Positions 11,043-57,788 of a DNA stretch of 64,000 nucleotides are shown here, in pieces. How positions within the stretch are numbered: position 1 is the stretch's first letter; every line of letters starts with the position of its first letter. The stretch is from a virus (lineage: Duplodnaviria > Heunggongvirae > Uroviricota > Caudoviricetes). The position numbers were made by a program, and so were the translations under genes. The DNA lies in IMG/VR virus record IMGVR_UViG_2693429768_000001, positions 1-64,000 of that record; one strand, given 5' to 3'. The notes under the pieces are model-generated. The model made no database searches. It was not told the DNA's origin and saw nothing but the letters and a program-made list of their open reading frames with translations.

Positions 11043-11690
11043 TTACCATTCATAGGGTAAATTAAGCGCTTTTAAACCTTGCTGAAAGGTATTAAGTGAG
11101 CCGTTCTTTTGTTGTTCCATTTGTTCGCGTGCCGCTTTCTCATACTGCTCCATCCGTTGGTTATACTCTTGCAATTCCTCTGGTGAGAGGTTTCCCATTG
11201 GGGAGTTTGTACCCGGCCCCCTGGCCCGCTCTTCAAGCGTACCCTGCACGTTTTGATGGCGCATTCCTGGGGCATTTCTGATTGAGTCAATGCCATTTCT
11301 TACAACGTCTTCTTTATTAACGGCATTGCTCGCCACCAGCACACCCCAGCTAGGAATAGCAAAATCAGGAGCGGTTTCGCATGCCTTTACCATATAATCG
11401 AAAGAGCTTCGATTGATCTCGTTTGCGTCGGGATTTAACAGGCGAGAATATTGATATTTAGCATTTTCGTTGGTTGCGACTTTATACAGTTCTTGCTGCA
11501 CCATCGCTTCAGAAAGTTTAAGGCGTTTCATATCTGACAGTAACTTCTTGCGCATGGATTCGTCTTGACTGACAGCAAAGCCGTAAACGTGCCCAAGGTA
11601 TTTCGTATAATCGGTACAAATCTCCTTTACGCTTGATGCTGCATTAACAGTCCCAGCCATAAATAATAACGGTAGTAATAGTTTTCTCAT
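11043..11690 (-). CDS. Secreted protein with signal peptide (Sim-like); C-terminus shares a motif with Sit
   Basis: Start moved to ATG 11690 (RBS GGTGAGG; MRKLLLPLLFMAGTVNAAS); motif PGMRHQNVQGTLEERARGPGT matches Sit GMRREVVQGTLEERARGKGT. Confidence 0.55.
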   Translation of the reverse strand: MRKLLLPLLFMAGTVNAASSVKEICTDYTKYLGHVYGFAVSQDESMRKKLLSDMKRLKLSEAMVQQELYKVATNENAKYQYSRLLNPDANEINRSSFDYMVKACETAPDFAIPSWGVLVASNAVNKEDVVRNGIDSIRNAPGMRHQNVQGTLEERARGPGTNSPMGNLSPEELQEYNQRMEQYEKAAREQMEQQKNGSLNTFQQGLKALNLPYEW

Positions 11691-11786
11691 TATAACCTCA
11701 CCTGCCTTATAACTCATTTAGGGTACATATTTTCGCCTTTAAAAAAAAGAGGTTATTAGATCCAATTGTGTATTTATTAAGCATAT

Positions 11787-11803
11787 AATGCTCTAATAAA
11801 TTT
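11787..11803 (+). promoter_or_regulatory. C1-operator-like site AATGCTCTAATAAATTT overlapping a TATAAT -10 (immI promoter, Op51-like)
   Basis: Read directly; matches the recalled P1 C1 operator consensus ATTGCTCTAATAAATTT with one mismatch. Confidence 0.7.
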
Positions 11804-11949
11804 GTATTTTTAAGTCGCGAATGCTATCTTTTCGCATCATATTGACCTTTTAATCGTTCAGGCTTATAGTTCCGCCGTCGTAGCAAATTCTGCGACCGGG
11901 TTTAGCAGCCTGAATGTTAGTGCGGACAACCGCAGATATCCGATATTGC

Positions 11950-12060
11950 GGTATTTTTGTGTCCGTAAAACCGCGTTACGCCCAAATTATGGTGGGGCGT
12001 GATGGGGAGGCTTCGGCCTGCTGGTTTCACTAACGCCAGTCTGCTAACCCCGTCACGTCC
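11950..12060 (+). ncRNA. Possible c4-like antisense RNA region of immI (boundaries approximate)
   Basis: Between operator-promoter and icd/ant; short segments (GTCTGCTAACCCC) complementary to downstream GGGTAGCAGGTTG / TTTAGCAGC; inferred from P1 immI organisation. Confidence 0.3.
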
Positions 12061-13534: not shown

Positions 13535-14335
13535 ATGCAACAAACATTCAATGCGGATATGAATATATCAAACCTTCATCAAAATGTCGATCCTTCAACC
13601 ACTCTGCCCGTTATTTGTGGTGTTGAAATTACGACCGACCGCGCTGGCCGTTACAACCTTAATGCTCTACACAGAGCGAGCGGACTCGGTGCCCATAAAG
13701 CGCCAGCTCAATGGCTAAGAACGCTGTCAGCCAAACAGCTCATCGAAGAGCTTGAAAAAGAAACTATGCAGAATTGCATAGTTTCGTTCGAAGGCCGTGG
13801 CGGCGGCACTTTTGCCCATGAATTGCTCGCAGTGGAGTACGCAGGCTGGATTTCTCCCGCGTTTCGGCTGAAGGTAAACCAGACATTTATCGACTATCGA
13901 GCCGGAAGATTACAACCTGCTATTCCGAAGAGCCTCCCAGAAGCTCTCCGTTTGGCTGCTGACCTGGCAGAGCAAAAGCAACGGCTGGAGCAAAAAATGC
14001 TGATGGATGCACCTAAAGTCGAATTCGCCGAACGCGTTGCTACCGCCAGCGGGGTTCTAATCGGCAACTATGCCAAAGTGCTCGGCCTGGGCCAAAACTA
14101 TCTCTTCACCTGGTTGCGTGATAACGGAATTCTGATCGCAACCGGTGAACGCAGGAACGTCCCCAAACAAGAATACATATCCCGTGGGTATTTCACCCTT
14201 AAAGAAACCGTGATCGATACAAGCAATGGAAGCAGGATTTCTTTCACGACTCGTATAACCGGCAAAGGTCAGCAGTGGCTGATGAAGCGATTGCTTGATG
14301 CTGGTGTGCTGGTACCTGTCGCGGCAACGCGCTAA
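13535..14335 (+). CDS. kilA: KilA (KilA-N domain plus antirepressor-like C-terminal domain), 266 aa
   Basis: Size identical to recalled P1 KilA; immediately upstream of repL. Confidence 0.7.
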   Translation: MQQTFNADMNISNLHQNVDPSTTLPVICGVEITTDRAGRYNLNALHRASGLGAHKAPAQWLRTLSAKQLIEELEKETMQNCIVSFEGRGGGTFAHELLAVEYAGWISPAFRLKVNQTFIDYRAGRLQPAIPKSLPEALRLAADLAEQKQRLEQKMLMDAPKVEFAERVATASGVLIGNYAKVLGLGQNYLFTWLRDNGILIATGERRNVPKQEYISRGYFTLKETVIDTSNGSRISFTTRITGKGQQWLMKRLLDAGVLVPVAATR

Positions 14336-14364: not shown

Positions 14365-15210
14365 ATGCTGGCTAAAGTCACTTTCCTGAGCTGTATAACG
14401 ATGAGCGATTTTACTTTTTCTGGCTATGAATTGGCCTTCTTTGTAACACACTCCGGTCTATCCCGTAGCGCCGGGCATATCCTGTCGCAATGTGCAAATC
14501 TCGCGGCAACAACCAGTGAATACTTCATTCACAAGCCCCACCGCCTGATCGCGGCAGAAACTGGTTATAGCCAATCAACCGTCGTTCGTGCATTCCGTGA
14601 AGCTGTAAACAAAGGAATTCTATCTGTAGAGATTGTTATCGGCGATCACCGTGAACGTCGCGCTAACCTGTACCGGTTTACACCATCCTTTTTGGCCTTC
14701 GCACAACAAGCCAAAAATGCGCTGATTGAAAGCAAATTAAAGATCTCTTCAGCGGCAACCAAGGTTAAAGCTGTTCTCGCTAAGACATTGGCTTTATTTA
14801 ATTTTTTATCCACACCCCCATGTCAAAATGATACCCCCTCCCCCTGTCAGGATGACGTGGCAATAAAGAATAAGAAGTCACAAGTTAAAAAAACAAAAAG
14901 ATCAGTTTCCGGCGGTGCCGGAACGACCAGACTCAAAAAATTGACTTCATGGATCGCTGAGGCAAAAGCAAAGGCTGACAATCTGCGGTTATCCAAAAAA
15001 CGCGCTCAAAAACATGAGTTCAAGCAGAAAGTAGAGGCGGCAGCGCGGAAATATGCTTACCTGAAGGACAAGCGTTCTCCTGATATTGGCGGGATATCAA
15101 ACTTCGATAATCTGCCGCATTGCATGACGGTAAACGAAGCTCTTAATGCGGTTTTAGCCAAAAATAAAGATAACGAAAAATGGGGTATACCGGCAGGATT
15201 CAGGGGATGA
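14365..15210 (+). CDS. repL: Lytic replication protein RepL (oriL expected inside), 281 aa
   Basis: Size and position match recalled P1 RepL; ATG 14365. Confidence 0.7.
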   Translation: MLAKVTFLSCITMSDFTFSGYELAFFVTHSGLSRSAGHILSQCANLAATTSEYFIHKPHRLIAAETGYSQSTVVRAFREAVNKGILSVEIVIGDHRERRANLYRFTPSFLAFAQQAKNALIESKLKISSAATKVKAVLAKTLALFNFLSTPPCQNDTPSPCQDDVAIKNKKSQVKKTKRSVSGGAGTTRLKKLTSWIAEAKAKADNLRLSKKRAQKHEFKQKVEAAARKYAYLKDKRSPDIGGISNFDNLPHCMTVNEALNAVLAKNKDNEKWGIPAGFRG

Positions 15211-15260
15211 TAGATTGCTCTAATCTGGAGTCACCTGGCGTTTTCAGTTTGAGGTCGGAG

Positions 15261-15527
15261 ATGCAATCTGATTTTTTACAGTTAGCGATCGCTTTTGCAG
15301 GATATGTTTGTATTGGCTTCTGTGTATACATGATCAGCCGAAAAATGCTTGTCGATATCGACCGCAAAGAACGAGCAGAGGAGATCTTAGTATGGATTTT
15401 CTTTGGCGCGGTCTGGCCATTAGGGATCATGTTTGCTGCAACATTTCTTCGATGTGGATATTCACCCTTCCAGGTGATTTCTATAGAAAAAAAGCCAGAC
15501 ATTGATACAATCGTTGCGGGTGCTTGA
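15261..15527 (+). CDS. Small two-helix membrane protein, 88 aa
   Basis: Start moved to ATG 15261 (RBS GAGGTCGGAG); hydrophobic segments LAIAFAGYVCIGFCVYMI and ILVWIFFGAVWPLGIMFAATFL. Confidence 0.45.
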   Translation: MQSDFLQLAIAFAGYVCIGFCVYMISRKMLVDIDRKERAEEILVWIFFGAVWPLGIMFAATFLRCGYSPFQVISIEKKPDIDTIVAGA

Positions 15528-15628
15528 GGCTATCTGCTTCAGGCATGACCCGAAAAGCAGATAGAAGAAAGCCCCAGATAACATTACGCGTCCTGCAAGA
15601 CGCTTAACATTAATCTGAGGCCATATCT

Positions 15629-15835
15629 ATGCTTAGCATACGTAGATTAGCCTCTTACCGACCAAAAGGTCAAGGAGAAGCAGGCTATGAAGCAGCAAAA
15701 AGCGATGTTAATCGCTCTGATCGTCATCTGTTTAACCGTCATTGTGACGGCACTGGTAACGAGGAAAGACCTCTGCGAGGTACGAATCCGAACCGGCCAG
15801 ACGGAGGTCACTGTCTTCACAGCCTACGAATCTGA
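15629..15835 (+). CDS. mok: mok-like overlapping reading frame of the hok locus, 68 aa
   Basis: ATG 15629; overlaps hok in a different frame as in hok/mok/sok loci. Confidence 0.55.
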   Translation: MLSIRRLASYRPKGQGEAGYEAAKSDVNRSDRHLFNRHCDGTGNEERPLRGTNPNRPDGGHCLHSLRI

Positions 15836-15842
15836 AAGGTAA
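15687..15842 (+). CDS. hok: Hok/Gef-family type I toxin, 51 aa
   Basis: Manual translation MKQQKAMLIALIVICLTVIVTALVTRKDLCEVRIRTGQTEVTVFTAYESER; near-identical in pattern to recalled E. coli Gef/HokC; below the ORF-track size cutoff. Confidence 0.85.
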   Translation: MKQQKAMLIALIVICLTVIVTALVTRKDLCEVRIRTGQTEVTVFTAYESER

Positions 15843-16196
15843 GAGACCTGGCGGGGAGTGATCCCCGTCACTCTTCGTGTGTCTGGTAACCTCAATGCAC
15901 CCTTTTCTCCCCAATAGTGTAAAACACAATGAAGTAGAAGGAGTTATTTCACATCATGCAAAGATTCAGACCATATCTCCCAATAGCCTTCGCGACATGA
16001 TGACTTTCAGAAATATCTAGCTGTTAACAAAATTCCATACTTGCTTTGCTAATACCACCTAGATTATATATGGAAAAATACACCTAAAACTTAAACAAAT
16101 TATATCCACAACAAACATCCATCTATTAGGATTAAAATTAATTTAATAATAAATAATACAACACCGGTTCATTTTCTAACAAACCGGTGGGCACCA

Positions 16197-17189
16197 TTAT
16201 TGGAATAACTTACTGATTACATTAAAAACATTAAGGGCGTTACTTGCCACACTAGACATCTTGGCTGAATTTTTTTCGATTGAGTCAAGAACACTTTCGA
16301 CTTCCGATAAAGTTCTTCTGCTATCTGCATCTTTTCCTGAGTCTATCGCATCTTTAATTGCAGATATAGCAGACTCTAAATTCTCCTTAAACTCACCTGT
16401 CGTCTCATCCTTCAAGAGAAGTTCTAACTCTTGTTTAAGTTTTTCCAATGATGCTCTTTTCTCATCAGTTTTACTAATCTTCCCTGAATAACTGACACAA
16501 ACACATTCTCTTTTATTGCAGACAGGACAACCATTTAGATAATAACTTTCAAACGCCTCGCCAAGATCATCATCTTTAAAAATAATCCCCCATAAAGAAA
16601 ACAACCAAGCATATATATCAGCACACTCTTCATGAAGATTTTCTTTGTTGTAATTTTTATCTTCAATTGATTTAGCATAAGCCTCTTGCAACTCACCCAA
16701 CTCTTCGAATAACCTGGATGAATGATAAAACCCACCAAAAGTAGACCAAATGGTTCTATTCGACGGATAGATGTCATTAATCATTCGTGGCGCATAAGGC
16801 GGAAATTGCATAGGTTTAATAGCGTTATATTTATTGAAAAGCTCATCTTTAATTCCTTTTGCGCTTCTTATTTTCTCTGGCTTTCTGTGTGTTTGAGAAC
16901 AGGAACAAGGCGCCCCTAAGCAATAAGGACAGCAACTAGGAAATTTTTTATAAAATGCTTCCTGTGGTTGTATTTCAAGTTTATCACAGATTGCAAAAAG
17001 CCAAGACAATGCTTCTATATAGGTATTTTTTAATAATTCTTTATCCTGATTACCATCACGAATAAACTCACGTGTTAAATAAGCTGTTTTCCTTGTCAGA
17101 TAAGAGTACATATACTCAAATGATTTTTCTTCATTTTTTTTGCTGTAAATACCTACAATAATATTGCTCATATCATTGATACGTAACAT
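16197..17189 (-). CDS. MazG-like nucleotide pyrophosphohydrolase-like protein with two Cys-cluster zinc-ribbon motifs and a C-terminal coiled coil, 330 aa
   Basis: Start at ATG 17189 (RBS AAGAGGAA); EELGELQEA...EECADIYAWL = EExxE...EExxD signature; CCPYCLGAPCSCS and CPVCNKRECVCVS; AT-rich; hairpin terminator at ~16150-16185. Confidence 0.6.
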   Translation of the reverse strand: MLRINDMSNIIVGIYSKKNEEKSFEYMYSYLTRKTAYLTREFIRDGNQDKELLKNTYIEALSWLFAICDKLEIQPQEAFYKKFPSCCPYCLGAPCSCSQTHRKPEKIRSAKGIKDELFNKYNAIKPMQFPPYAPRMINDIYPSNRTIWSTFGGFYHSSRLFEELGELQEAYAKSIEDKNYNKENLHEECADIYAWLFSLWGIIFKDDDLGEAFESYYLNGCPVCNKRECVCVSYSGKISKTDEKRASLEKLKQELELLLKDETTGEFKENLESAISAIKDAIDSGKDADSRRTLSEVESVLDSIEKNSAKMSSVASNALNVFNVISKLFQ

Positions 17190-17486
17190 GACATTCCTCT
17201 TAAATAAGCCAATACTTCCTAGAACCATATATGCTTCGACAAAGATTAACGGACATCTTGCCTTCACAAACTTTGACGCTACATAAATTTAACCATGTGC
17301 ATACTAAATATTTAAGGTAGAAAAGTATAGGAGTATTTATTAATAGGTAACTGTTAGTTTACACTCACTTCATACCAGAGTATTTACAAGATGTTATTTT
17401 ACTCTATTCGCTAGGCGGTGGAATGCGGTTGTATCAAGGGGAGGTAAACCTCCCCCGAAGAAGATTAAAAGTACAAGGGATAACAC

Positions 17487-17996
17487 TTAATCCCACTCAA
17501 TCCAGTTGTAGACGATACGAAGTGACGGGCGCACAGCGGCAGTCACATCTTCGGTACTAAAGTCGATTGCATCACTGTAGATTTTGCAGTCCAACATTTC
17601 AATTGTTGTAGCAGCTTTTGTCACAGCGTTAACCCCGGAAGATTTGGATTCAGGGGTAGCAGCCATCGTGATATCAACATAGTCCTTCGCCGCAATGCGA
17701 TCTTTAATGAACTGAAGAATATCGCCTTCGATAGTCTCCACGCACTGGACCTGGATTTCCCCAGAGTTTCGAATTGGACCGTGCTGGTTGAACTTCACAC
17801 CATTCGGACCATAGTCCTCCACATCCTCGCGGGTCATTTCAGGAATTTGCGACGTGCGAACCAGTACGCTGATATCTTCATGGCCTGCAAAAGTGAGCTG
17901 GAATTCAGAAGATACCAGTCGTTCGCCTTTGGCCGCGTTGGCAGTATAGCGGCCCTTAATAAATTTACGGTTTCCCTTAGTGTTATTGTGCCCCAT
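17487..17996 (-). CDS. Tail/baseplate structural protein, 169 aa
   Basis: ORF track; first gene of head/tail block. Confidence 0.45.
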   Translation of the reverse strand: MGHNNTKGNRKFIKGRYTANAAKGERLVSSEFQLTFAGHEDISVLVRTSQIPEMTREDVEDYGPNGVKFNQHGPIRNSGEIQVQCVETIEGDILQFIKDRIAAKDYVDITMAATPESKSSGVNAVTKAATTIEMLDCKIYSDAIDFSTEDVTAAVRPSLRIVYNWIEWD

Positions 17997-18007
17997 ATAA
18001 AATCCTT

Positions 18008-53004: not shown

Positions 53005-53910
53005 ATGACCACTATTACCAGAGAACAGGCACAGAAAATTATTGAAGCAGCCGATGAGGTTATTAGTGCGCTGGCCGGAACTAACGAGGATGTTCACCCT
53101 GGTAGCGATAACATGCTACGCCTGTGGGATGACCTGAATGACCGTTACGCGCCGCCGGAAGTTGTGCGTGAGCTGGCGCGTATCGTGCTGGCATCGCTGG
53201 AAGCAGAACCAGTTGCTTATATTTTCAAACATCCGGCCGGGAAATTATTCTGGGCTTTAACGGATGAAAGCAATAAAGAGCAAGCGGACGTTATTCCTGT
53301 TTATGCTGCCGCGCCTGCGTCGGTTGTGCCGGATGATGCATCAGGGGCGCTTGCTTATGCTTACAAAGAGCTTACGCCTGAGATTATGCGCGGTCATATC
53401 GCTGTATTCGAGCGATATGGAATAGCCCCAAACGATAGCATTACCACAATTCAGGCACTGCGAATCGCGCTGGATGGCATAGAGCGGAGCGACGCCATGC
53501 TTCATGGTGCCGAAACTGTAAGCCAAACTTACAAGTTGCCTCCCCTGTCATCCAGCGAAGTAAACGACGCGGCATGGAAATTACACAACATGCTGACTGA
53601 ACACGGCCTGCTAAATGGGCGTCAGTTCAACAATCTGAAAGGTTGCTTCTATGAGGCATTAAAGGTCGCAATGCGCAACTATCCGGCAACTCCGGATAGT
53701 TGGATAAGCTGTAGTGAGCGAATGCCGGATACCAAAACAGCCGTTCTTGTTGCCGTGGAGTTTGACAGGAAAGGTGACTGGCGAATGAAATGGGCGACTT
53801 ACATCCCGGGGCATCCTGACGCTAATGATGGGTGGATAATTCCTGGTGCGTCGTGGAAACCGTCACACTGGATGCCGCTACCAGAACCGCCGCAGGAGGT
53901 GAATCAATGA
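53005..53910 (+). CDS. Hypothetical protein, 301 aa (lambdoid early-region type)
   Basis: ATG 53005 after GAGG. Confidence 0.45.
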   Translation: MTTITREQAQKIIEAADEVISALAGTNEDVHPGSDNMLRLWDDLNDRYAPPEVVRELARIVLASLEAEPVAYIFKHPAGKLFWALTDESNKEQADVIPVYAAAPASVVPDDASGALAYAYKELTPEIMRGHIAVFERYGIAPNDSITTIQALRIALDGIERSDAMLHGAETVSQTYKLPPLSSSEVNDAAWKLHNMLTEHGLLNGRQFNNLKGCFYEALKVAMRNYPATPDSWISCSERMPDTKTAVLVAVEFDRKGDWRMKWATYIPGHPDANDGWIIPGASWKPSHWMPLPEPPQEVNQ

Positions 53911-53990
53911 GCTGGCCTGAAGCATTCACCACGGTAGGAATTGTGATGGCGGCAGCACTGGGTTTGTATTCAATTTGTCGCTGGTGGTAA
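53907..53990 (+). CDS. Candidate 27-aa hydrophobic peptide
   Basis: ATG overlaps previous stop (ATGA); RBS AGGAGGT; MSWPEAFTTVGIVMAAALGLYSICRWW. Confidence 0.35.
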   Translation: MSWPEAFTTVGIVMAAALGLYSICRWW

Positions 53991-53992
53991 CG

Positions 53993-54226
53993 ATGGGAAA
54001 AATAACTTTTGTAGTCGAATTTGAGGATGGCAAAGAGCCACCTGTTAGCGCCAATCTTGATGTTGCTGGTGGCAGGCTTGTTTCGGTTCTATTTGGTGAC
54101 TACCGAGATGATTTCTTCCAACCAGAAGAAGTTGATGTAGTGCGAGAAGCATTAAATGAGCTAAGTGTTGATAACGATGATGCTCATGCGGAAATCATCA
54201 AAAAAATGGAATTGCTAACTTACTAA
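53993..54226 (+). CDS. Small acidic protein, 77 aa
   Basis: ATG 53993; in frame with track ORF 53975..54226. Confidence 0.4.
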   Translation: MGKITFVVEFEDGKEPPVSANLDVAGGRLVSVLFGDYRDDFFQPEEVDVVREALNELSVDNDDAHAEIIKKMELLTY

Positions 54227-54275
54227 ATTATTAATTTGTAGTGCCATCATCTATAACACCGATAGGAATTGAACG

Positions 54276-54407
54276 ATGTCAAAAATGCCCAAAATAGATG
54301 TTTTTATTTTCTCAGCAATTGTTGGCTTTGGTTTTACTGCTGGAGTGCAGTTTTGTATTGCGTGGGGAAAAATTATCAACTACCTATGGAGTTGTTTTAT
54401 TCAGTGA
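54276..54407 (+). CDS. Candidate 43-aa membrane peptide
   Basis: RBS AGGAA; MSKMPKIDVFIFSAIVGFGFTAGVQFCIAWGKIINYLWSCFIQ; competes with the N-terminus of track ORF 54298..54708. Confidence 0.3.
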   Translation: MSKMPKIDVFIFSAIVGFGFTAGVQFCIAWGKIINYLWSCFIQ

Positions 54408-54414
54408 GGTAAGT

Positions 54415-54708
54415 ATGTGGAGAGGTAATAGTCATGGCAGAAGCCAGATGATACTTACCGAATATAAGCTAGACCACAAAACCAATAAATCACGTTCAGT
54501 ATATTTGCTCCGGCACAATAGCCGCGTAAGGAATACCGTGCTGGAGCAAAACCTGACCGTTGAAATGGATAATTTTGGGAACTTCAAGCCAACAATTGCG
54601 CTTGATGATTTCCCGCGTGGTTTAAGCGAAAGAGAAGCAATGCTGAAATTAGCAGAATGGCTACAAAGATTAAGCATTGCTATTGAAGATAACTGGTCTG
54701 AACCTTAA
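54415..54708 (+). CDS. Hypothetical protein, 97 aa (track ORF 54298..54708 with later start)
   Basis: ATG 54415 after RBS GAGGT. Confidence 0.4.
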   Translation: MWRGNSHGRSQMILTEYKLDHKTNKSRSVYLLRHNSRVRNTVLEQNLTVEMDNFGNFKPTIALDDFPRGLSEREAMLKLAEWLQRLSIAIEDNWSEP

Positions 54709-54714
54709 ATTTAT

Positions 54715-55089
54715 ATGATGACACTAAAACATTTTCTTGACCGCCCATTATGGGCGGCAGCCGCAGGCTATGACTTTAATTATATGGATTGCATGTCTTA
54801 TACCGCCAATGCATACGACTATTCCTTCAGTCTGCTGCTTAATTCTTTAAGAATATTGCCGCAAACAGAAGTTGGAGAGCTTCATTTATGGCTATTGGGC
54901 TTTATCGCGGCTGGAGTTGGTATTGCTGTATGGCCTTTTATTTTCTGGCTGGTGGCTGTTGTAGTGTGGTTTAAGTGCAAGACGTACCGGAGAAAGTATT
55001 TCTTAGGTGATGGAATGACTGATATTGCCAAAATGAACATTGAAAAATGGACTAAGGAATGTGAAAAGAAATGGCGCAAAAAGAAATGA
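54715..55089 (+). CDS. Membrane protein, 124 aa
   Basis: Hydrophobic LWLLGFIAAGVGIAVWPFIFWLVAVVVWF; Lys-rich C-terminus. Confidence 0.45.
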   Translation: MMTLKHFLDRPLWAAAAGYDFNYMDCMSYTANAYDYSFSLLLNSLRILPQTEVGELHLWLLGFIAAGVGIAVWPFIFWLVAVVVWFKCKTYRRKYFLGDGMTDIAKMNIEKWTKECEKKWRKKK

Positions 55090-56003
55090 CCAGAATCACT
55101 GAAGAGCGTATATCAGAGATTATTTCCCGTATCGAAATGTATGGTCACGGTGCTGGATATACGGCAGATGAAGTATTGGCACTTGCCCAAATGGCTTTGG
55201 CGGCTTGCAAAGATGATAAAAAAATGAAGTTTATCGACTTGTTAGTGAAGGAACTGCCTAAGTGCGGCGGGTGGCCTGATGGAATGAGTTATTGTTACCT
55301 ACCCAGTGTCAATTTAATGGCACCATGCGCGACTTTTGCTTTTGGCTCAGACCACAAAAAAGACACTTTCTTTGGGCGCAATTTTTGTTGTGAGATTGAG
55401 CTTCCAATTGGTGACCTTGATAGCGATGAATACCAGTCAGTTGTCACTCGCGAACAATACGAATCAGCTCTCATAGCGTCGCAGAAAGTCGAGTTCAATG
55501 GTGATGAACTTGAAAGTAAGACTTACAGGTTGGATTTTGGGCAATGGCTGGAACAGCAACGCGGGAAAATCGATGTGGACTGTGGTTGTGTGTCCACTGA
55601 AACATTCATGCACTGGCTGCGGGTAGCTTACGAGGCTGGCAACTATCCGGATATTCCGGATAGTTCGGTGCCAGCACCAGGAAAGGGCGTCACCGGTGAA
55701 CGTATCCGAATTAAGCCGCATGTTTATCGCGAACTGGTTAACCGTCTCCACGATACAGCGATCAAGTGTGCTGGCACCCAGCAATTACGAGAAAGAATTA
55801 GCCGTGTTTTGGGCGACGTTATTACACCAGATCATCATACACAAGCCGAGAAAAGTGGCCTGGAAAGGTGTCACCTTGAGGCGGCATTAAACATTAAGCC
55901 GGGGCATACGCTTGGCATTATTGATGCACTATTGGTTCATAAGATGGCCAGGGCTTTATTGCCGCTGGTGGATGCTGGCGATACAAGCGAGGGTGAAGTA
56001 TGA
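55086..56003 (+). CDS. Hypothetical protein, 305 aa
   Basis: ATG 55086 overlapping previous stop (ATGA). Confidence 0.4.
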   Translation: MTRITEERISEIISRIEMYGHGAGYTADEVLALAQMALAACKDDKKMKFIDLLVKELPKCGGWPDGMSYCYLPSVNLMAPCATFAFGSDHKKDTFFGRNFCCEIELPIGDLDSDEYQSVVTREQYESALIASQKVEFNGDELESKTYRLDFGQWLEQQRGKIDVDCGCVSTETFMHWLRVAYEAGNYPDIPDSSVPAPGKGVTGERIRIKPHVYRELVNRLHDTAIKCAGTQQLRERISRVLGDVITPDHHTQAEKSGLERCHLEAALNIKPGHTLGIIDALLVHKMARALLPLVDAGDTSEGEV

Positions 56004-56362
56004 GAGTTGCAGATCACATCAAACACCTTGAAAGAATTATCGAAAACGGTGAACTCTTAAGAGATCAGATGAGACGCACGGCAGAAGTCAGAGAGGCGAT
56101 AATCCGCAGTCAGGCTGGTAAATTAAAGCAATTATCAGAGATTAACGCGCTATACAAGAACAGACGTAACCGGGCGGCGCTGCGGCTTCAGAAAGCACGT
56201 AATGAAATTAAATTGGTGGAGGCAAAACTGAAAAAACAGATTCAGCGTTACGATCAGCAAGATGCTTTTTATGCCGCCATCAAGGCGGCTGCTAATGAAA
56301 TAGGCATCTGGAAGTTGCTGGTGGAGAAAGCAAAGACGAAGTTAAATGCCAACGAAAGCTGA
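56000..56362 (+). CDS. Coiled-coil protein, 120 aa; last gene of the early operon
   Basis: ATG 56000; Lys/Arg/Glu-rich heptad-like sequence. Confidence 0.45.
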   Translation: MRVADHIKHLERIIENGELLRDQMRRTAEVREAIIRSQAGKLKQLSEINALYKNRRNRAALRLQKARNEIKLVEAKLKKQIQRYDQQDAFYAAIKAAANEIGIWKLLVEKAKTKLNANES

Positions 56363-56436
56363 ACTACAGGTACCCACCAGCACATACAGAAAATGATTGT
56401 TTCCACATCAAGGAGATTTTAATGTTTCACTGAACA

Positions 56437-56574
56437 TTAAGTAAGCCAGTGCATAATTCCATTTTTTACTGACCTTAAAAGCAAAATCAAAACGATGATG
56501 AGGATGATCGCCAGAATCTGGCTAATAACAGGCGCATCTAAAAATGCACTCAGGAACTGAAAAAAAGCAGTCAT
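56437..56574 (-). CDS. Candidate 45-aa hydrophobic peptide (possible type I toxin-like small membrane protein)
   Basis: Manual translation MTAFFQFLSAFLDAPVISQILAIILIIVLILLLRSVKNGIMHWLT; RBS AAGGA; AT-rich intergenic region next to nested inverted repeats. Confidence 0.3.
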   Translation of the reverse strand: MTAFFQFLSAFLDAPVISQILAIILIIVLILLLRSVKNGIMHWLT

Positions 56575-57023
56575 TAAGGTGGTTCCTTGTCAAATGTAAA
56601 GGAGCACTTGCTCACGTTGACGTAGAAACCCAACCCCTATATAGTTGGATTCGGTGAAAGAAAGTCGTTAACGTGAGCTTACGGCACATGTTTTCGGAAC
56701 AACATCAGGGAACGGCTAATTCCTTGATGCGGATGGGGTCTGTAATGCAGACCCTATCTATTAACGTCATGATTGCATCTCAAATTTTCTCCTTATCTTC
56801 ATTAATCAAAATTCATTTCATTTGTGAAACATCACAATATTTAGAAAATGGCCCTCTTGCAAGTGCATAACTTTGTGGATAAATCAGGAAGAAAAAAGTT
56901 GATTCTGCGCACGGCAAGGCAGATAAGCTGTGCACAAAAATCAATGGGAAAAGAAAAAAAATTAAAAGTTACTTTGCTGGTTAAATAATAGTCGTTACGC
57001 AATTGTTCTGGATGGGATTTGAT

Positions 57024-57275
57024 ATGCACGATTGGAATATTGCAGCTAAAAGTCAGGAAGAACGGGATAAGGTTAACGTTGATCTGGCTGCCAGCGGTGT
57101 GGCGTACAAAGAGCGATTGAACATACCTGTCATAGCTGAACAGGTAGCCCGCGAGCAACCAGAGAATCTGCGCACCTATTTCATGGAACGGTTACGGCAC
57201 TATCGGCAGTTAAGCCTCCAGTTGCCAAAAGGGAGCGATCCGGTGTATCAGAACGAGGATGCACCAAAAAAATAA
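57024..57275 (+). CDS. hot: Homologue of DNA polymerase III theta subunit (HolE-like), 83 aa
   Basis: [50 protein letters not shown] collinear with recalled E. coli HolE. Confidence 0.8.
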
Positions 57276-57360
57276 CGGCAAGATGGGGGAGAAATGTGAT
57301 TAGCCCCCAGCGTGGCGCGCCTACAAACCCCGCTTTCACAAACTATGCCTTTTCAATGTA

Positions 57361-57380
57361 TACTGTATGAATAAACAGTA
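57361..57380 (+). promoter_or_regulatory. LexA (SOS) box TACTGTATGAATAAACAGTA upstream of humD
   Basis: CTGT-N8-ACAG read directly, 19 nt before the humD ATG. Confidence 0.8.
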
Positions 57381-57398
57381 TCATTGAGGTAAAACGCT

Positions 57399-57788
57399 AT
57401 GGGCTTCCCTTCTCCTGCGGCGGATTATGTTGAAAGCCGAATTTCTCTTGATCAGCAGATAATTAGACATCCTTCAGCGACCTACTTCATGCGGGCAGCT
57501 GATAGCCATCACCGTGAGGGAATATTGCAGGGTGCTTTGCTGGTGGTTGATTCCTCGCTTACTCCGGTTGATGGTTCTCTGCTTGTGTGCGCTATGGAGG
57601 GTGAATATCGCATAAAGAGATACAGGAAGTATCCGCGCCAGCACCTGGAGGATTTAAGCACCGGGAAGAAAGAGGCGTTACCAGTAGATGACGATGGATA
57701 CACGGGCAGTAATGCTGTTTTTGGTGTGATCACTCATGTCATCAATGATGCCCGAAGTGGGGAATTTGATGATTGTCCGGTTATTTAA
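57399..57788 (+). CDS. humD: UmuD-like SOS mutagenesis protein, 129 aa
   Basis: LexA box upstream; size and position match recalled P1 HumD. Confidence 0.8.
   Translation: MGFPSPAADYVESRISLDQQIIRHPSATYFMRAADSHHREGILQGALLVVDSSLTPVDGSLLVCAMEGEYRIKRYRKYPRQHLEDLSTGKKEALPVDDDGYTGSNAVFGVITHVINDARSGEFDDCPVI

What the first reader, a model, noticed from the sequence alone, without database searches (positions are those of the whole stretch)
15530..17480. AT-rich accessory islet between repL and the head/tail block
The ~2 kb between repL (ends 15210) and the first structural gene (17487) is visibly AT-richer than the rest of the window. It holds three unrelated cargo genes: a small membrane protein, a Gef/Hok-type toxin with mok frame, and a convergent 330-aa MazG-like zinc-ribbon gene with its own RBS and terminator. 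In the P1 organisation as I recall it this slot holds rlfA/rlfB/pmgF, so this looks like a swapped hotspot, the usual place for defence or addiction cargo.
Basis: partly seen in the sequence, partly recalled or inferred. Interest (0 to 1): 0.8.

Follow-up and report, generated by a model that had tools for sequence, protein, structure and literature searches.

The report
Uncharacterised MazG-like cassette in P1 hotspot
In this P1-like phage-plasmid the known variable slot between repL and bplB holds a small membrane gene, a complete hok/sok killer module and a later-inserted 1.5-kb AT-rich cassette whose single gene belongs to an uncharacterised family of zinc-knuckle MazG nucleotide hydrolases that sits in accessory slots of several prophage types and is fused elsewhere to immune domains, which makes it a plausible but untested anti-phage gene.

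Summary
The window is a P1-like phage-plasmid. The repL–bplB slot lacks P1's rlfA/rlfB/pmgF, so the "swapped hotspot" reading holds. The slot is already published as P1 variable region 5, and this three-ORF cargo was noted in pTZ20_1P without a function.

Only 15915-17453 is AT-rich: GC 0.34, the lowest 1.5-kb stretch of the window. The membrane gene and hok/sok module (15211-15914) have backbone GC (0.47) and are a common state of the slot.

The AT-rich part is a separate insertion present in 17 of 707 matching plasmids and 19 of 5426 complete E. coli genomes. It carries one gene (16197-17189, minus strand) with its own RBS and terminator.

Its 330-aa product is a tandem MazG:
- the N half is degenerate and the C half keeps invariant EExxE/ExxD;
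- each half ends in an invariant Cys4 knuckle;
- a variable helical tail follows.

There is no significant PADLOC or NCBIfam hit and no Pfam hit at threshold. Close relatives sit in accessory slots of P2-like and lambdoid prophages. Distant relatives are fused to TIR, deaminase, PD-T4-6-like kinase or GGDEF domains.

Best reading: a prophage-borne nucleotide-hydrolysing defence gene (about 0.5, untested).

The parts
14365..15210 (+). repL, the conserved left flank of the slot
   Evidence: 281-aa ORF. It is 97-99% identical to P1-like phages, where it is annotated RepL.
15214..15224 (+). Left 11 nt (ATTGCTCTAAT) of the P1 C1 operator Orlf/Op55. Homology to P1 ends exactly here.
   Evidence: The P1 annotation places the operator at the equivalent position. 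The window reads ATTGCTCTAAT|CTGGAG and P1 reads ATTGCTCTAAT|TATAAC. The blastn breakpoint is 15224.
15261..15527 (+). Small membrane protein of 88 aa from the ATG behind GAGG (the ORF is open from 15180), with two hydrophobic helices
   Evidence: ORF. It matches phrog_3772 at E 1.7e-38. It is present in MH422554-type P1 relatives and annotated as an 81-aa hypothetical protein in plasmids. Local GC is 0.466.
15506..15902 (+). Complete hok/sok type I toxin-antitoxin locus: mok 15629-15835, hok 15687-15842, sok/leader region 15518-15692
   Evidence: PF01848 at E 2.4e-22. Rfam RF01794 at 113.9 bits. The locus is 87-90% identical to hokW/hokD loci of lambdoid and Rac phages over exactly this span.
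15915..17453 (.). AT-rich 1539-bp cassette, an insertion relative to MH422554-type P1 relatives, where 11 bp stand in its place
   Evidence: Breakpoints from blastn and junction sequences. GC is 0.340, the lowest 1.5-kb stretch of the window. It is present at 99.7% identity or more in 17 plasmids and in 19 of 5426 complete E. coli genomes, always on plasmids. Both non-coding flanks occur nowhere else in complete E. coli genomes.
16162..16189 (-). Intrinsic terminator of the MazG-like gene
   Evidence: 12-pair stem followed by TTGTATTATT. Folding energy -20.7 kcal/mol, z -5.77.
16197..17189 (-). 330-aa tandem-MazG, double Cys4-knuckle protein (NCBI WP_000944483.1, 'MazG-like family protein')
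17195..17201 (-). Ribosome-binding site AAGAGGA, about 5-6 nt before the ATG
   Evidence: Read directly from the sequence.
17202..17437 (-). AT-rich upstream region of the MazG-like gene. No promoter was identified.
   Evidence: No sigma-70 consensus match on the minus strand in this interval. Manual inspection of the sequence found none either.
17438..17455 (-). GC-rich hairpin GGGGAGG-TAAA-CCTCCCC just after bplB. It replaces the canonical bplB terminator of the relatives and marks the right junction.
   Evidence: P1, MH422554 and RCS47 share AAAGCTCC-CGAA-GGAGCTTT plus a T-tract at this position. The window hairpin folds at -15.6 kcal/mol but is followed by UUGAUAC, with no U-tract.
17487..17996 (-). 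bplB, the conserved right flank of the slot
   Evidence: 169-aa ORF, annotated BplB in relatives. The common right breakpoint in all variants is 17454.

Best explanation
**What the interval is.** It is the known variable slot of P1-like phage-plasmids and holds two nested accessory modules.

**Module 1 (15225-15914).** This is a small membrane gene plus a complete hok/sok post-segregational killing locus. It stands where P1 has rlfA/rlfB and is a common state of the slot.

**Module 2 (15915-17453).** This is a more recent, AT-rich, self-contained cassette inserted between hok and bplB. It displaced the bplB terminator. Its single gene encodes a pseudo-dimeric all-alpha NTP pyrophosphohydrolase.
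- Two homologous MazG halves lie in one chain.
- The N half has lost the acidic metal ligands. The C half keeps EExxE and ExxD.
- Each half is closed by a Cys4 knuckle that presumably binds zinc.
- A variable, roughly 95-aa helical tail follows.

**Most likely role.** It is a single-gene, prophage-carried defence against competing phages or other mobile elements. On infection the enzyme would hydrolyse (d)NTPs, canonical or phage-modified, to (d)NMP plus PPi and starve the invader's replication. The tail and/or the knuckles would provide regulation or oligomerisation.

**Shown here by computation.**
- The cassette boundaries, composition, RBS and terminator.
- Purifying selection on the gene.
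- The conserved catalytic and Cys motifs, the internal duplication and the fold class.
- Carriage in several prophage accessory slots, immune-type domain fusions and operon partners.

**Inferred only.** Zinc binding, enzymatic activity, substrate, trigger, and the defence phenotype itself.
For: **Cassette.**
- GC is 0.340, about 4.8 sd below the window mean.
- The flanking non-coding DNA is found only together with the gene.
- The gene is AT-rich in every host examined: 0.32-0.41 against flanks of 0.40-0.62.

**A real gene.** dN/dS is about 0.05 against the P2-borne copies.

**Enzyme.**
- E162, E163, E166, E188 and D191 are invariant in 23 close relatives and conserved in about 156-161 of 176 broader family members. 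The eight Cys are conserved in 156-170 of 176; most of the remainder are alignment gaps in fragmentary sequences.
- The family profile hits MazG structures: 1vmg at E 1.8e-4, plus 2p06, 5ie9 and 2gta.
- The N half aligns to the C half at hhalign probability 94%, E 8e-8. An archaeal member keeps both halves catalytically intact.

**Accessory-slot carriage of close homologues.**
- P2-like phages, between gpS and gpV.
- Lambdoid prophages, between the replication genes and the nin/Q region.
- Beside a P2-like integrase.
- At a prophage end next to tail-fibre genes.
- 15 IMG/VR viral contigs.

**Immune-type fusions of the same core.**
- TIR at either end, and a Pycsar/CAP12-type TIR.
- RibD-like nucleotide deaminase.
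- PD-T4-6-like Ser/Thr kinase (PADLOC E 6e-57).
- GGDEF.
- The catalytic residues are mostly retained in the fusions.

**Conserved partners in other clades.** One clade has a 2-TM coiled-coil protein. Another has a P-loop nucleotide kinase plus a 2-TM protein.

**Neighbours and slot.**
- Neighbours of distant members include type I R-M and ThsA-like SIR2 proteins.
- The slot's P1 occupants RlfA/RlfB are PADLOC candidate PDC-M04.

**Literature.** MazG domains are predicted but unvalidated defence effectors (PMC13092281; PMC12871103).
Against: - No experiment exists, and no paper mentions WP_000944483.
- There is no significant hit in PADLOC v2 (only LmuB at E 0.015) or NCBIfam, and only sub-threshold Pfam MazG (14.7 bits against a cut-off of 22).
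- No promoter was found, so expression in the lysogen is not established. The hairpin after bplB lacks a U-tract, so the gene could instead be read through from the late operon.
- No sensor or trigger is evident. An unregulated NTPase would be toxic.
- The closest solved fold is a phage dUTPase, which is a phage-benefit enzyme.
- The neighbourhood evidence for defence islands has no control and is modest.
- Foldseek gave nothing significant against the PDB or BFVD.
- In the fusions, the MazG module could be a nucleotide sensor rather than an effector.
Confidence: 0.5

Rival explanations
1. Phage-benefit nucleotide-pool enzyme. The protein would be a dUTPase-like or house-cleaning NTP pyrophosphatase, or a (p)ppGpp/NTP hydrolase. 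It would act during P1-like lytic growth to sanitise or bias the dNTP pool or to reprogramme the host, as phage dimeric dUTPases, cyanophage MazG and MazZ of Z-genome phages do.
For: - PHROG hits are to phage NTP pyrophosphohydrolases (phrog_2245, E 3.5e-6).
- The gene lies downstream of, and co-oriented with, the late genes bplB/pmgG/21/22, behind a hairpin with no U-tract, so late read-through is possible.
- In P2-like phages it is co-oriented with late genes.
Against: - The distribution is very patchy: 17 of 707 matching plasmids and 19 of 5426 genomes.
- Its position differs in each phage type and is never within a nucleotide-metabolism or replication operon.
- It has its own terminator and foreign composition.
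- Fusions to TIR, PD-T4-6-like kinase and Pycsar-type TIR are not expected for a housekeeping phage enzyme.
- There is no Pfam dimeric-dUTPase hit.
Confidence: 0.2
2. Counter-defence gene. The enzyme would protect the phage-plasmid from host immunity by destroying nucleotide substrates or nucleotide-derived immune signals, or by removing toxic nucleotides made by host defences.
For: - It is phage-borne, in variable slots where anti-defence genes also accumulate.
- Its predicted chemistry is directed at nucleotides.
Against: - MazG enzymes cleave the alpha-beta bond of linear NTPs, not the cyclic oligonucleotides used by CBASS, Pycsar or Thoeris (established biochemistry of the family, from my own knowledge).
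- Fusion to TIR, kinase and deaminase effector-type domains, and chromosomal copies next to R-M and ThsA-like genes, fit host immunity better.
- Some copies are in non-prophage chromosomal islets.
Confidence: 0.1
3. Not an immunity gene at all. It would be a selfish or neutral moron, or a second addiction or stress toxin that adds to hok/sok in stabilising the plasmid prophage.
For: - It sits directly beside hok/sok.
- An NTPase could be growth-inhibitory.
- The family is unannotated.
Against: - hok/sok occurs without the cassette in most relatives, and the cassette has independent junctions.
- No antitoxin-like partner is present in the window.
- Strong purifying selection and a roughly 1000-cluster family with conserved catalytic residues across phyla argue for a selected biochemical function.
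Confidence: 0.1

Closest known systems
P1 variable region 5 (rlfA-rlfB-pmgF) of P1-like phage-plasmids, and the '3 orfs between repL and bplB' of pTZ20_1P / CP010146
   Same: It is the same slot, the same conserved flanks and the same low-GC tendency (PMC9603915). pTZ20_1P (MN510447) and CP010146 carry this very cassette at 99.9% identity.
   Different: The papers only record the substitution. They give no breakpoints, no separation into two modules, and no analysis of the MazG-like gene or its family.
MazG / all-alpha NTP pyrophosphohydrolase superfamily (for example SSO3215 1vmg, E. coli MazG 3cra, YpjD 2gta)
   Same: The C half has the canonical EExxE and ExxD helix pair, aligned residue by residue to 1vmg. 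The fold is helical-bundle.
   Different: - The window protein scores below the Pfam MazG threshold.
- It is a tandem duplication with a degenerate N half.
- Each half ends in an invariant CPxC-x4-CxC knuckle.
- It has an extra helical tail.
Dimeric dUTPases of phages and bacteria (phage Dut 5myd, C. jejuni 1w2y)
   Different: Sequence identity is 6-7%, and there is no Pfam dUTPase_2 hit. Foldseek was not significant. Cys knuckles and the tail are absent from Duts.
Nucleotide-depletion defences: dCTP deaminase and dGTPase (preprint 10.1101/2021.04.26.441389), PUA-Calcineurin-HAD (PMC12871103), and the predicted MazG + MazG-C system of DefensePredictor (PMC13092281)
   Same: The proposed logic is the same: a single enzyme or small system destroys (d)NTPs. 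MazG domains are already predicted as alternative effectors. Relatives are fused to a nucleotide deaminase or sit in an operon with a nucleotide kinase.
   Different: The catalytic fold differs from all validated members. There is no PADLOC match. The architecture differs from the predicted MazG systems. There is no phenotype.
P2/P4 defence hotspots (PMC9122126, PMC13586616)
   Same: Conserved core genes flank rapidly swapped AT-rich cargo. A 77-79% identical homologue sits in a P2-like phage between gpS and gpV.
   Different: This is a P1-type phage-plasmid, not P2/P4. The searched P2/P4 paper does not mention MazG. I did not establish whether the S-V position is one of the hotspots those papers scored.
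hok/sok of plasmid R1, and hokW/hokD of lambdoid and Rac prophages
   Same: The locus has the Hok peptide, the overlapping mok frame and the sok/leader RNA model. It is 87-90% identical at DNA level to prophage hok loci.
   Different: Nothing notable. It is an ordinary member, placed after repL and a small membrane gene.

Membership tests
Hok/Sok type I toxin-antitoxin | Hok/Gef toxin peptide of about 50 aa | tested here: met
   PF01848 at E 2.4e-22, 78.7 bits against a cut-off of 22.
Hok/Sok type I toxin-antitoxin | Overlapping mok reading frame upstream of and across hok | tested here: met
   ORF 15629-15835 (68 aa) overlaps hok 15687-15842 in another frame.
Hok/Sok type I toxin-antitoxin | Sok antisense RNA / leader element | tested here: met
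   Rfam RF01794 matches over its full length with 113.9 bits against a gathering score of 59, at 15518-15692. The tool reports the match on the + strand.
MazG / all-alpha NTP pyrophosphohydrolase superfamily | EExxE ... ExxD metal-binding motifs on paired helices | tested here: met
   E162, E163, E166, E188 and D191 are invariant in A1 and conserved in about 156-161 of 176 broader members. They align to the motifs of 1vmg.
MazG / all-alpha NTP pyrophosphohydrolase superfamily | Pfam PF03819 match at the gathering threshold | tested here: not met
   The window protein scores 14.7 bits against a cut-off of 22. Some family members pass: P0154 at 29.1 bits and P0144 at 27.1 bits. PF03819 is also precomputed for P0011 and P0016.
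MazG / all-alpha NTP pyrophosphohydrolase superfamily | All-alpha helical-bundle fold shared with solved members | tested here: met
MazG / all-alpha NTP pyrophosphohydrolase superfamily | NTP to NMP + PPi activity | not testable with these tools
   This needs a biochemical assay.
Dimeric dUTPase (PF08761) | Sequence-family match or dUTPase motifs | tested here: not met
   No PF08761 hit at E up to 1. Sequence identity to 5myd and 1w2y is 6-7%.
Known or candidate anti-phage systems (PADLOC-DB v2) | HMM match to a catalogued defence protein | tested here: not met
   The only hit is LmuB at E 0.015 on the coiled-coil tail. The conserved partner of the Pantoea clade also has no hit.
Nucleotide-depletion defence (dCTP deaminase / dGTPase type) | Protection from phage and a fall in dNTP pools on infection | not testable with these tools
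   No experimental data exist for this protein.
Nucleotide-depletion defence (dCTP deaminase / dGTPase type) | Homology to the validated catalytic domains (cytidine deaminase, HD dGTPase) | tested here: not met
   The window protein has no such Pfam or PADLOC hit. Only distant relatives carry a fused deaminase.
Phage accessory hotspot / moron cassette | Conserved flanking core genes with interchangeable cargo among close relatives | tested here: met
   At least seven cargo types lie between repL and bplB, with a common right breakpoint at 17454.
Phage accessory hotspot / moron cassette | Deviant (low) GC | tested here: met
   0.340 against 0.475 for 15915-17453 only. The gene family is also AT-rich in other hosts.
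Phage accessory hotspot / moron cassette | Own promoter and terminator | tested here: inconclusive
   The terminator is clear. No sigma-70-like promoter was found upstream.
P1 rlfA/rlfB/pmgF | Homologous genes present in the slot | tested here: not met
   No alignment to P1 between 15225 and 17453.

The most novel reading that the evidence does not exclude
The tandem-MazG / double-Cys4-knuckle module would define a large, so far unnamed family of nucleotide-targeting immune proteins. The family has about 1000 clusters at 50% identity and occurs in bacteria and archaea. Members occur standalone in prophage hotspots (P1, P2, lambdoid), in two- or three-gene operons with membrane proteins and nucleotide kinases, and fused to TIR, Pycsar-type TIR, deaminase, PD-T4-6-like kinase and GGDEF domains. 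On this reading the P1-borne member is a new single-protein defence with a catalytic fold not yet validated in immunity. It would deplete dNTPs or selectively destroy phage-specific modified dNTPs.
Probability: 0.4. Interest if true: 0.75.

Novelty: new variant of a known kind. Interest (0 to 1): 0.55.

Why it matters
- P1-like phage-plasmids are common in E. coli and Salmonella and spread resistance genes, so their variable slots influence which phages and plasmids can coexist with them.
- If the MazG-like gene is a defence, it adds a new enzyme fold to the nucleotide-depletion class of immunity. It would also give a compact 330-aa, single-gene model for a family with roughly a thousand diverged clusters and many immune-type fusions.
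- It would show that the P1 repL–bplB slot works like the P2/P4 hotspots. P1's own RlfA/RlfB, long annotated as replication-linked, already match a candidate defence system.
- If the gene turns out to be a phage-benefit enzyme, the finding reduces to a documented variable region with an ordinary hok/sok module.

Tried and rejected
**Searches on the 330-aa protein that gave nothing usable**
- PADLOC, NCBIfam and Pfam gave no significant family hit.
- Foldseek against the PDB and BFVD gave no match at E 0.001 or better.
- The afdb50 library was not available.

**Transcription and partner searches**
- The promoter scan and manual inspection upstream of the gene found no convincing sigma-70 promoter.
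- A tblastn search for a remnant of the 245-aa membrane partner in the window found nothing.
- The cassette's non-coding flanks, searched in all complete E. coli genomes to find a donor, occur only with the gene on the same 19 plasmids.

**Literature**
- Searches for MazG with TIR, deaminase or defence terms, and for WP_000944483, found no description of this family.
- The P2/P4 hotspot paper does not mention MazG.

**Readings rejected**
- One homogeneous AT-rich three-gene islet: GC and breakpoints show two modules.
- A classic zinc ribbon: the motif is two short Cys4 knuckles.
- Cassette mobilised by a transposon: I saw no IS element, recombinase gene or tRNA at the cassette ends in this window, but I did not search for direct or inverted repeats or tRNAs. 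IS421 is present only in some relatives.
- The neighbourhood scan of 10 distant loci gave some R-M and ThsA-like neighbours. It had no control and was treated as weak evidence.
Full report
**1.

The region is part of a P1-like phage-plasmid. The genes kilA (13535-14335), repL (14365-15210) and, on the minus strand, bplB (17487-17996), pmgG, 21 and 22 are 97-99% identical to P1, P7 and many P1-like elements.

In P1 itself the interval between repL and bplB holds rlfA, rlfB and pmgF. In the window only 15001-15224 and 17454-18000 align to P1, so the slot content has been replaced.

The composition claim is only partly right.
- The 1539 bp from 15915 to 17453 have GC 0.340. This is the lowest 1.5-kb stretch in the 64-kb window, where the mean is 0.475 and the sd 0.028 (rank 0.0008).
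- The 704 bp from 15211 to 15914 have GC 0.466, indistinguishable from the backbone.

**2. Anatomy: two nested modules**

*Module 1 (about 15225-15914).*
- A small two-helix membrane protein lies at 15261-15527. Its ORF is open from 15180 and overlaps the end of repL. It matches phrog_3772 at E 1.7e-38.
- A complete hok/sok locus follows. Hok is at 15687-15842 (PF01848, E 2.4e-22), and mok overlaps it at 15629-15835. The Rfam sok model matches over its full length at 15518-15692 with 113.9 bits.
- The span 15506-15902 is 87-90% identical to hokW/hokD loci of lambdoid and Rac prophages.
- The closest phage relatives (MH422554, MH445380/1, Ro157c2YLVW, phi456) have exactly this module and then run straight into bplB.

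*Module 2 (15915-17453).*
- This is an insertion relative to those relatives, in which 11 bp stand in its place.
- The right junction lies in the terminator behind bplB. P1, MH422554 and RCS47 share AAAGCTCC-CGAA-GGAGCTTT followed by a T-tract. The window has a different hairpin, GGGGAGG-TAAA-CCTCCCC (17438-17455). It folds at -15.6 kcal/mol but has no U-tract in the bplB direction.
- The cassette contains one gene, 16197-17189 on the minus strand. It has an AAGAGGA ribosome-binding site (17195-17201) and a strong terminator at 16189-16162 (-20.7 kcal/mol, z -5.8).
- No sigma-70-like promoter was found in the AT-rich 250 bp upstream. Whether the gene is expressed on its own or by read-through from the late operon is open.

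*Left junction against P1.* Homology ends at 15224, inside the C1 operator Op55. The window keeps ATTGCTCTAAT and then diverges.

**3. The slot in relatives**

Of 707 plasmid records that match the interval, 17 carry the cassette at 99.7% identity or more. Among 5426 complete E. coli genomes 19 carry it, always on plasmids and never on a chromosome. The cassette's two non-coding flanks occur nowhere else in those genomes. This looks like one acquisition by one P1-like sublineage from a donor that is not represented among complete E. coli genomes.

An evenly spaced sample of the 707 records shows the alternatives:
- membrane gene plus hokD only, which is the commonest state
- the same with IS421
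- an 81-aa membrane gene plus a 198-aa unknown protein
- ParA plus DUF3892 plus the 198-aa protein
- Ail/Lom plus the 198-aa protein
- DUF3800 (rlfA) as in P1
- IS605 in RCS47

There are effectively two sub-slots. One lies after repL on the plus strand. The other lies after bplB on the minus strand, and it holds pmgF, the 198-aa protein, the MazG-like gene or nothing.

P1's own RlfA and RlfB match the PADLOC candidate system PDC-M04A/B at E 1e-95 and 1e-51.

The variability is published. The slot is 'variable region 5' and was noted to be low in GC (PMC9603915). [quoted passage not shown] Both records are among my 99.9% hits. Neither paper analyses the genes.

**4. The 330-aa protein**

*Family searches.*
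- Curated libraries give almost nothing. Pfam MazG scores 14.7 bits against a cut-off of 22. Nothing significant appears in NCBIfam. PADLOC gives only a coiled-coil artefact. The best PHROG hit is an NTP pyrophosphohydrolase at E 3.5e-6.
- A search of 5.8 billion proteins finds 28 clusters at 32-100% identity. NCBI names the identical one 'MazG-like family protein'.

*Conserved features in the alignment.*
- F-E162-E163-L-G-E166 and E188-x-x-D191 are invariant. This is the canonical MazG metal-binding pair.
- Two Cys4 knuckles are invariant: C87-P-Y-C90-x4-C95-x-C97 and C221-P-x-C224-x4-C229-x-C231. Each follows a helical half.
- The last 95 or so residues are poorly conserved.

*Structure and evolution.*
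- The family profile hits MazG structures, with 1vmg at E 1.8e-4 and the motifs aligned residue by residue.
- The N half aligns to the C half at hhalign probability 94%, E 8e-8. An archaeal relative keeps acidic motifs in both halves. The protein is therefore a tandem MazG whose N half has degenerated.
- The AlphaFold model (pLDDT 81, pTM 0.70) is all-helical, and both knuckle regions are confidently placed.
- dN/dS against the P2-borne copies is about 0.05.

**5. The family elsewhere**

*Close homologues are single genes in accessory positions of unrelated temperate phages.*
- Between gpS and gpV of P2-like phages (77-79% identity).
- Between lambda-P-type replication genes and the nin region of a lambdoid prophage (78%).
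- Between a DNA methylase and ant/Q in Pantoea-type lambdoid prophages.
- Beside the integrase of a P2-like prophage.
- At the tail-fibre end of a Providencia prophage.
- In small chromosomal islets.
- In 15 IMG/VR viral contigs.

The gene is AT-rich everywhere, at 0.32-0.41 against flanks of 0.40-0.62. DNA similarity stops at the ends of the coding sequence.

*Operon partners.*
- In the Pantoea/Pectobacterium clade a conserved protein of about 245 aa follows the gene. It has two TM helices and a coiled coil, and it has no Pfam or PADLOC match.
- The window has no trace of this partner.
- In Bacteroides and Oscillospiraceae a tail-less version sits in a three-gene operon. A P-loop, cytidylate-kinase-like protein precedes it and a 2-TM protein follows it.

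*The wider family.* A profile search of 1.84 billion representatives gives 992 clusters at E 0.001 or better and 101 at 1e-30 or better. I classified 176 sequences: the window protein plus the 175 retrieved by the two searches.
- 108 have the standard core-plus-tail architecture.
- 26 lack the tail.
- About 23 have extra domains.

*The extra domains.*
- TIR at the N or the C terminus.
- CAP12/Pycsar-type TIR.
- An N-terminal RibD-like nucleotide deaminase.
- An N-terminal Ser/Thr kinase that matches the single-gene defence PD-T4-6 at E 6e-57.
- A C-terminal GGDEF domain.

The catalytic acids and the eight cysteines are kept in nearly all members, including most fusions. Neighbours of ten distant loci include a complete type I R-M system, two ThsA-like SIR2 proteins and several methyltransferases. 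This scan had no control.

**6. Interpretation**

The firm part:
- The interval is a known P1 hotspot.
- It holds an ordinary hok/sok addiction module with a small membrane gene.
- It also holds a later-acquired, self-contained cassette for an intact MazG-type enzyme of an uncharacterised, widely distributed family.

The inferred part is the role. I consider a prophage-borne defence that acts on the nucleotide pool the most likely (about 0.5). The reasons are:
- the sporadic, hotspot-bound, AT-rich, single-gene distribution across unrelated temperate phages;
- the repeated fusion of the same catalytic core to TIR, PD-T4-6-like kinase, deaminase and GGDEF domains;
- the operon links to nucleotide kinases and membrane proteins;
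- the published but unvalidated prediction of MazG effectors in conflict systems (PMC13092281; PMC12871103).

The main rival is a phage-benefit pool enzyme such as a dUTPase-like or house-cleaning hydrolase (about 0.2). The fold match and the possible late read-through support it. Counter-defence and a toxin or neutral moron are less likely (about 0.1 each). What triggers or restrains the enzyme is unknown. The variable tail and the zinc knuckles are the only candidates.

**7. Novelty and verdict**

- The hotspot, the hok/sok module and the existence of this three-ORF cargo are already known.
- New here are the dissection into two modules with exact junctions, and the recognition that the AT-rich gene belongs to a large tandem-MazG / double-knuckle family with immune-type architectures.
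- No paper in the searchable library describes that family.
- I rate it a new variant of a known kind: nucleotide-targeting, hotspot-borne phage defence candidates. Interest is moderate (0.55), because the central functional claim is untested but directly testable with a 1-kb gene.

Noticed in passing
window 15214-15230: The left recombination junction against P1 falls inside the C1 repressor operator Op55 (Orlf). The window keeps ATTGCTCTAAT and then diverges. C1 control of whatever lies downstream of repL may therefore be altered in this lineage.
   Followed up: partly
L002 (P1 NC_005856) 2880-4048: P1's own RlfA (DUF3800) and RlfB are annotated 'possibly associated with lytic replication'. 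They match the PADLOC candidate defence system PDC-M04A/B at E 1e-95 and 1e-51.
   Followed up: partly
L013 1290-1886 (-), L014 2781-3377 (-), L015 1913-2509 (-), L003 4377-4973 (-): A 198-aa protein with no Pfam or PADLOC match occupies the bplB-proximal sub-slot in many P1-like plasmids and in phage RCS47. It sits at the position taken by pmgF in P1 and by the MazG-like gene here.
   Followed up: partly
window 17438-17455: The canonical bplB terminator of the relatives (AAAGCTCC-CGAA-GGAGCTTT plus a T-tract) is replaced by a GC-rich hairpin without a U-tract. Late-operon transcripts might read through into the MazG-like gene.
   Followed up: partly
L010 9080-9826, L028 9077-9823, L029 9069-9806, L007 11281-11805: In the Pantoea/Pectobacterium clade the MazG-like gene is followed by a conserved protein of about 245 aa with two TM helices and a coiled coil. 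The proteins are 60-83% identical to each other, and the L007 copy is truncated. They have no significant family match. This suggests a two-gene system that the window lacks.
   Followed up: partly
L021 4563-6872 and L024 9054-11375: Bacteroides and Oscillospiraceae MAGs share a three-gene operon. It consists of a P-loop cytidylate-kinase-like protein, a tail-less tandem-MazG knuckle protein and a 2-TM protein of about 200 aa. Two proteins in the neighbour set matched PADLOC pVip-kinase at E 6e-34; I take these to be the kinase-like proteins but did not confirm it.
   Followed up: partly
L045 (NZ_CP020936) 1288-2400: In one otherwise identical plasmid an IS421 sits between hokD and the MazG-like cassette. 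IS421 also truncates repL or the membrane gene in many other P1-like plasmids, so this slot attracts IS insertions.
   Followed up: no
window about 11500-12000, 54000-54750, 56500-57000: These are other low-GC patches (0.38-0.40). The 53500-57500 stretch matches the P1 variable region around upfN/humD and is only 58% covered by the closest P1 records, so it is probably another swapped accessory region.
   Followed up: partly
window 15518-15692: The Rfam sok model matches on the + strand, the same strand as hok, although Sok is an antisense RNA. This is probably a property of how the Rfam seed was oriented and not a feature of this locus.
   Followed up: no
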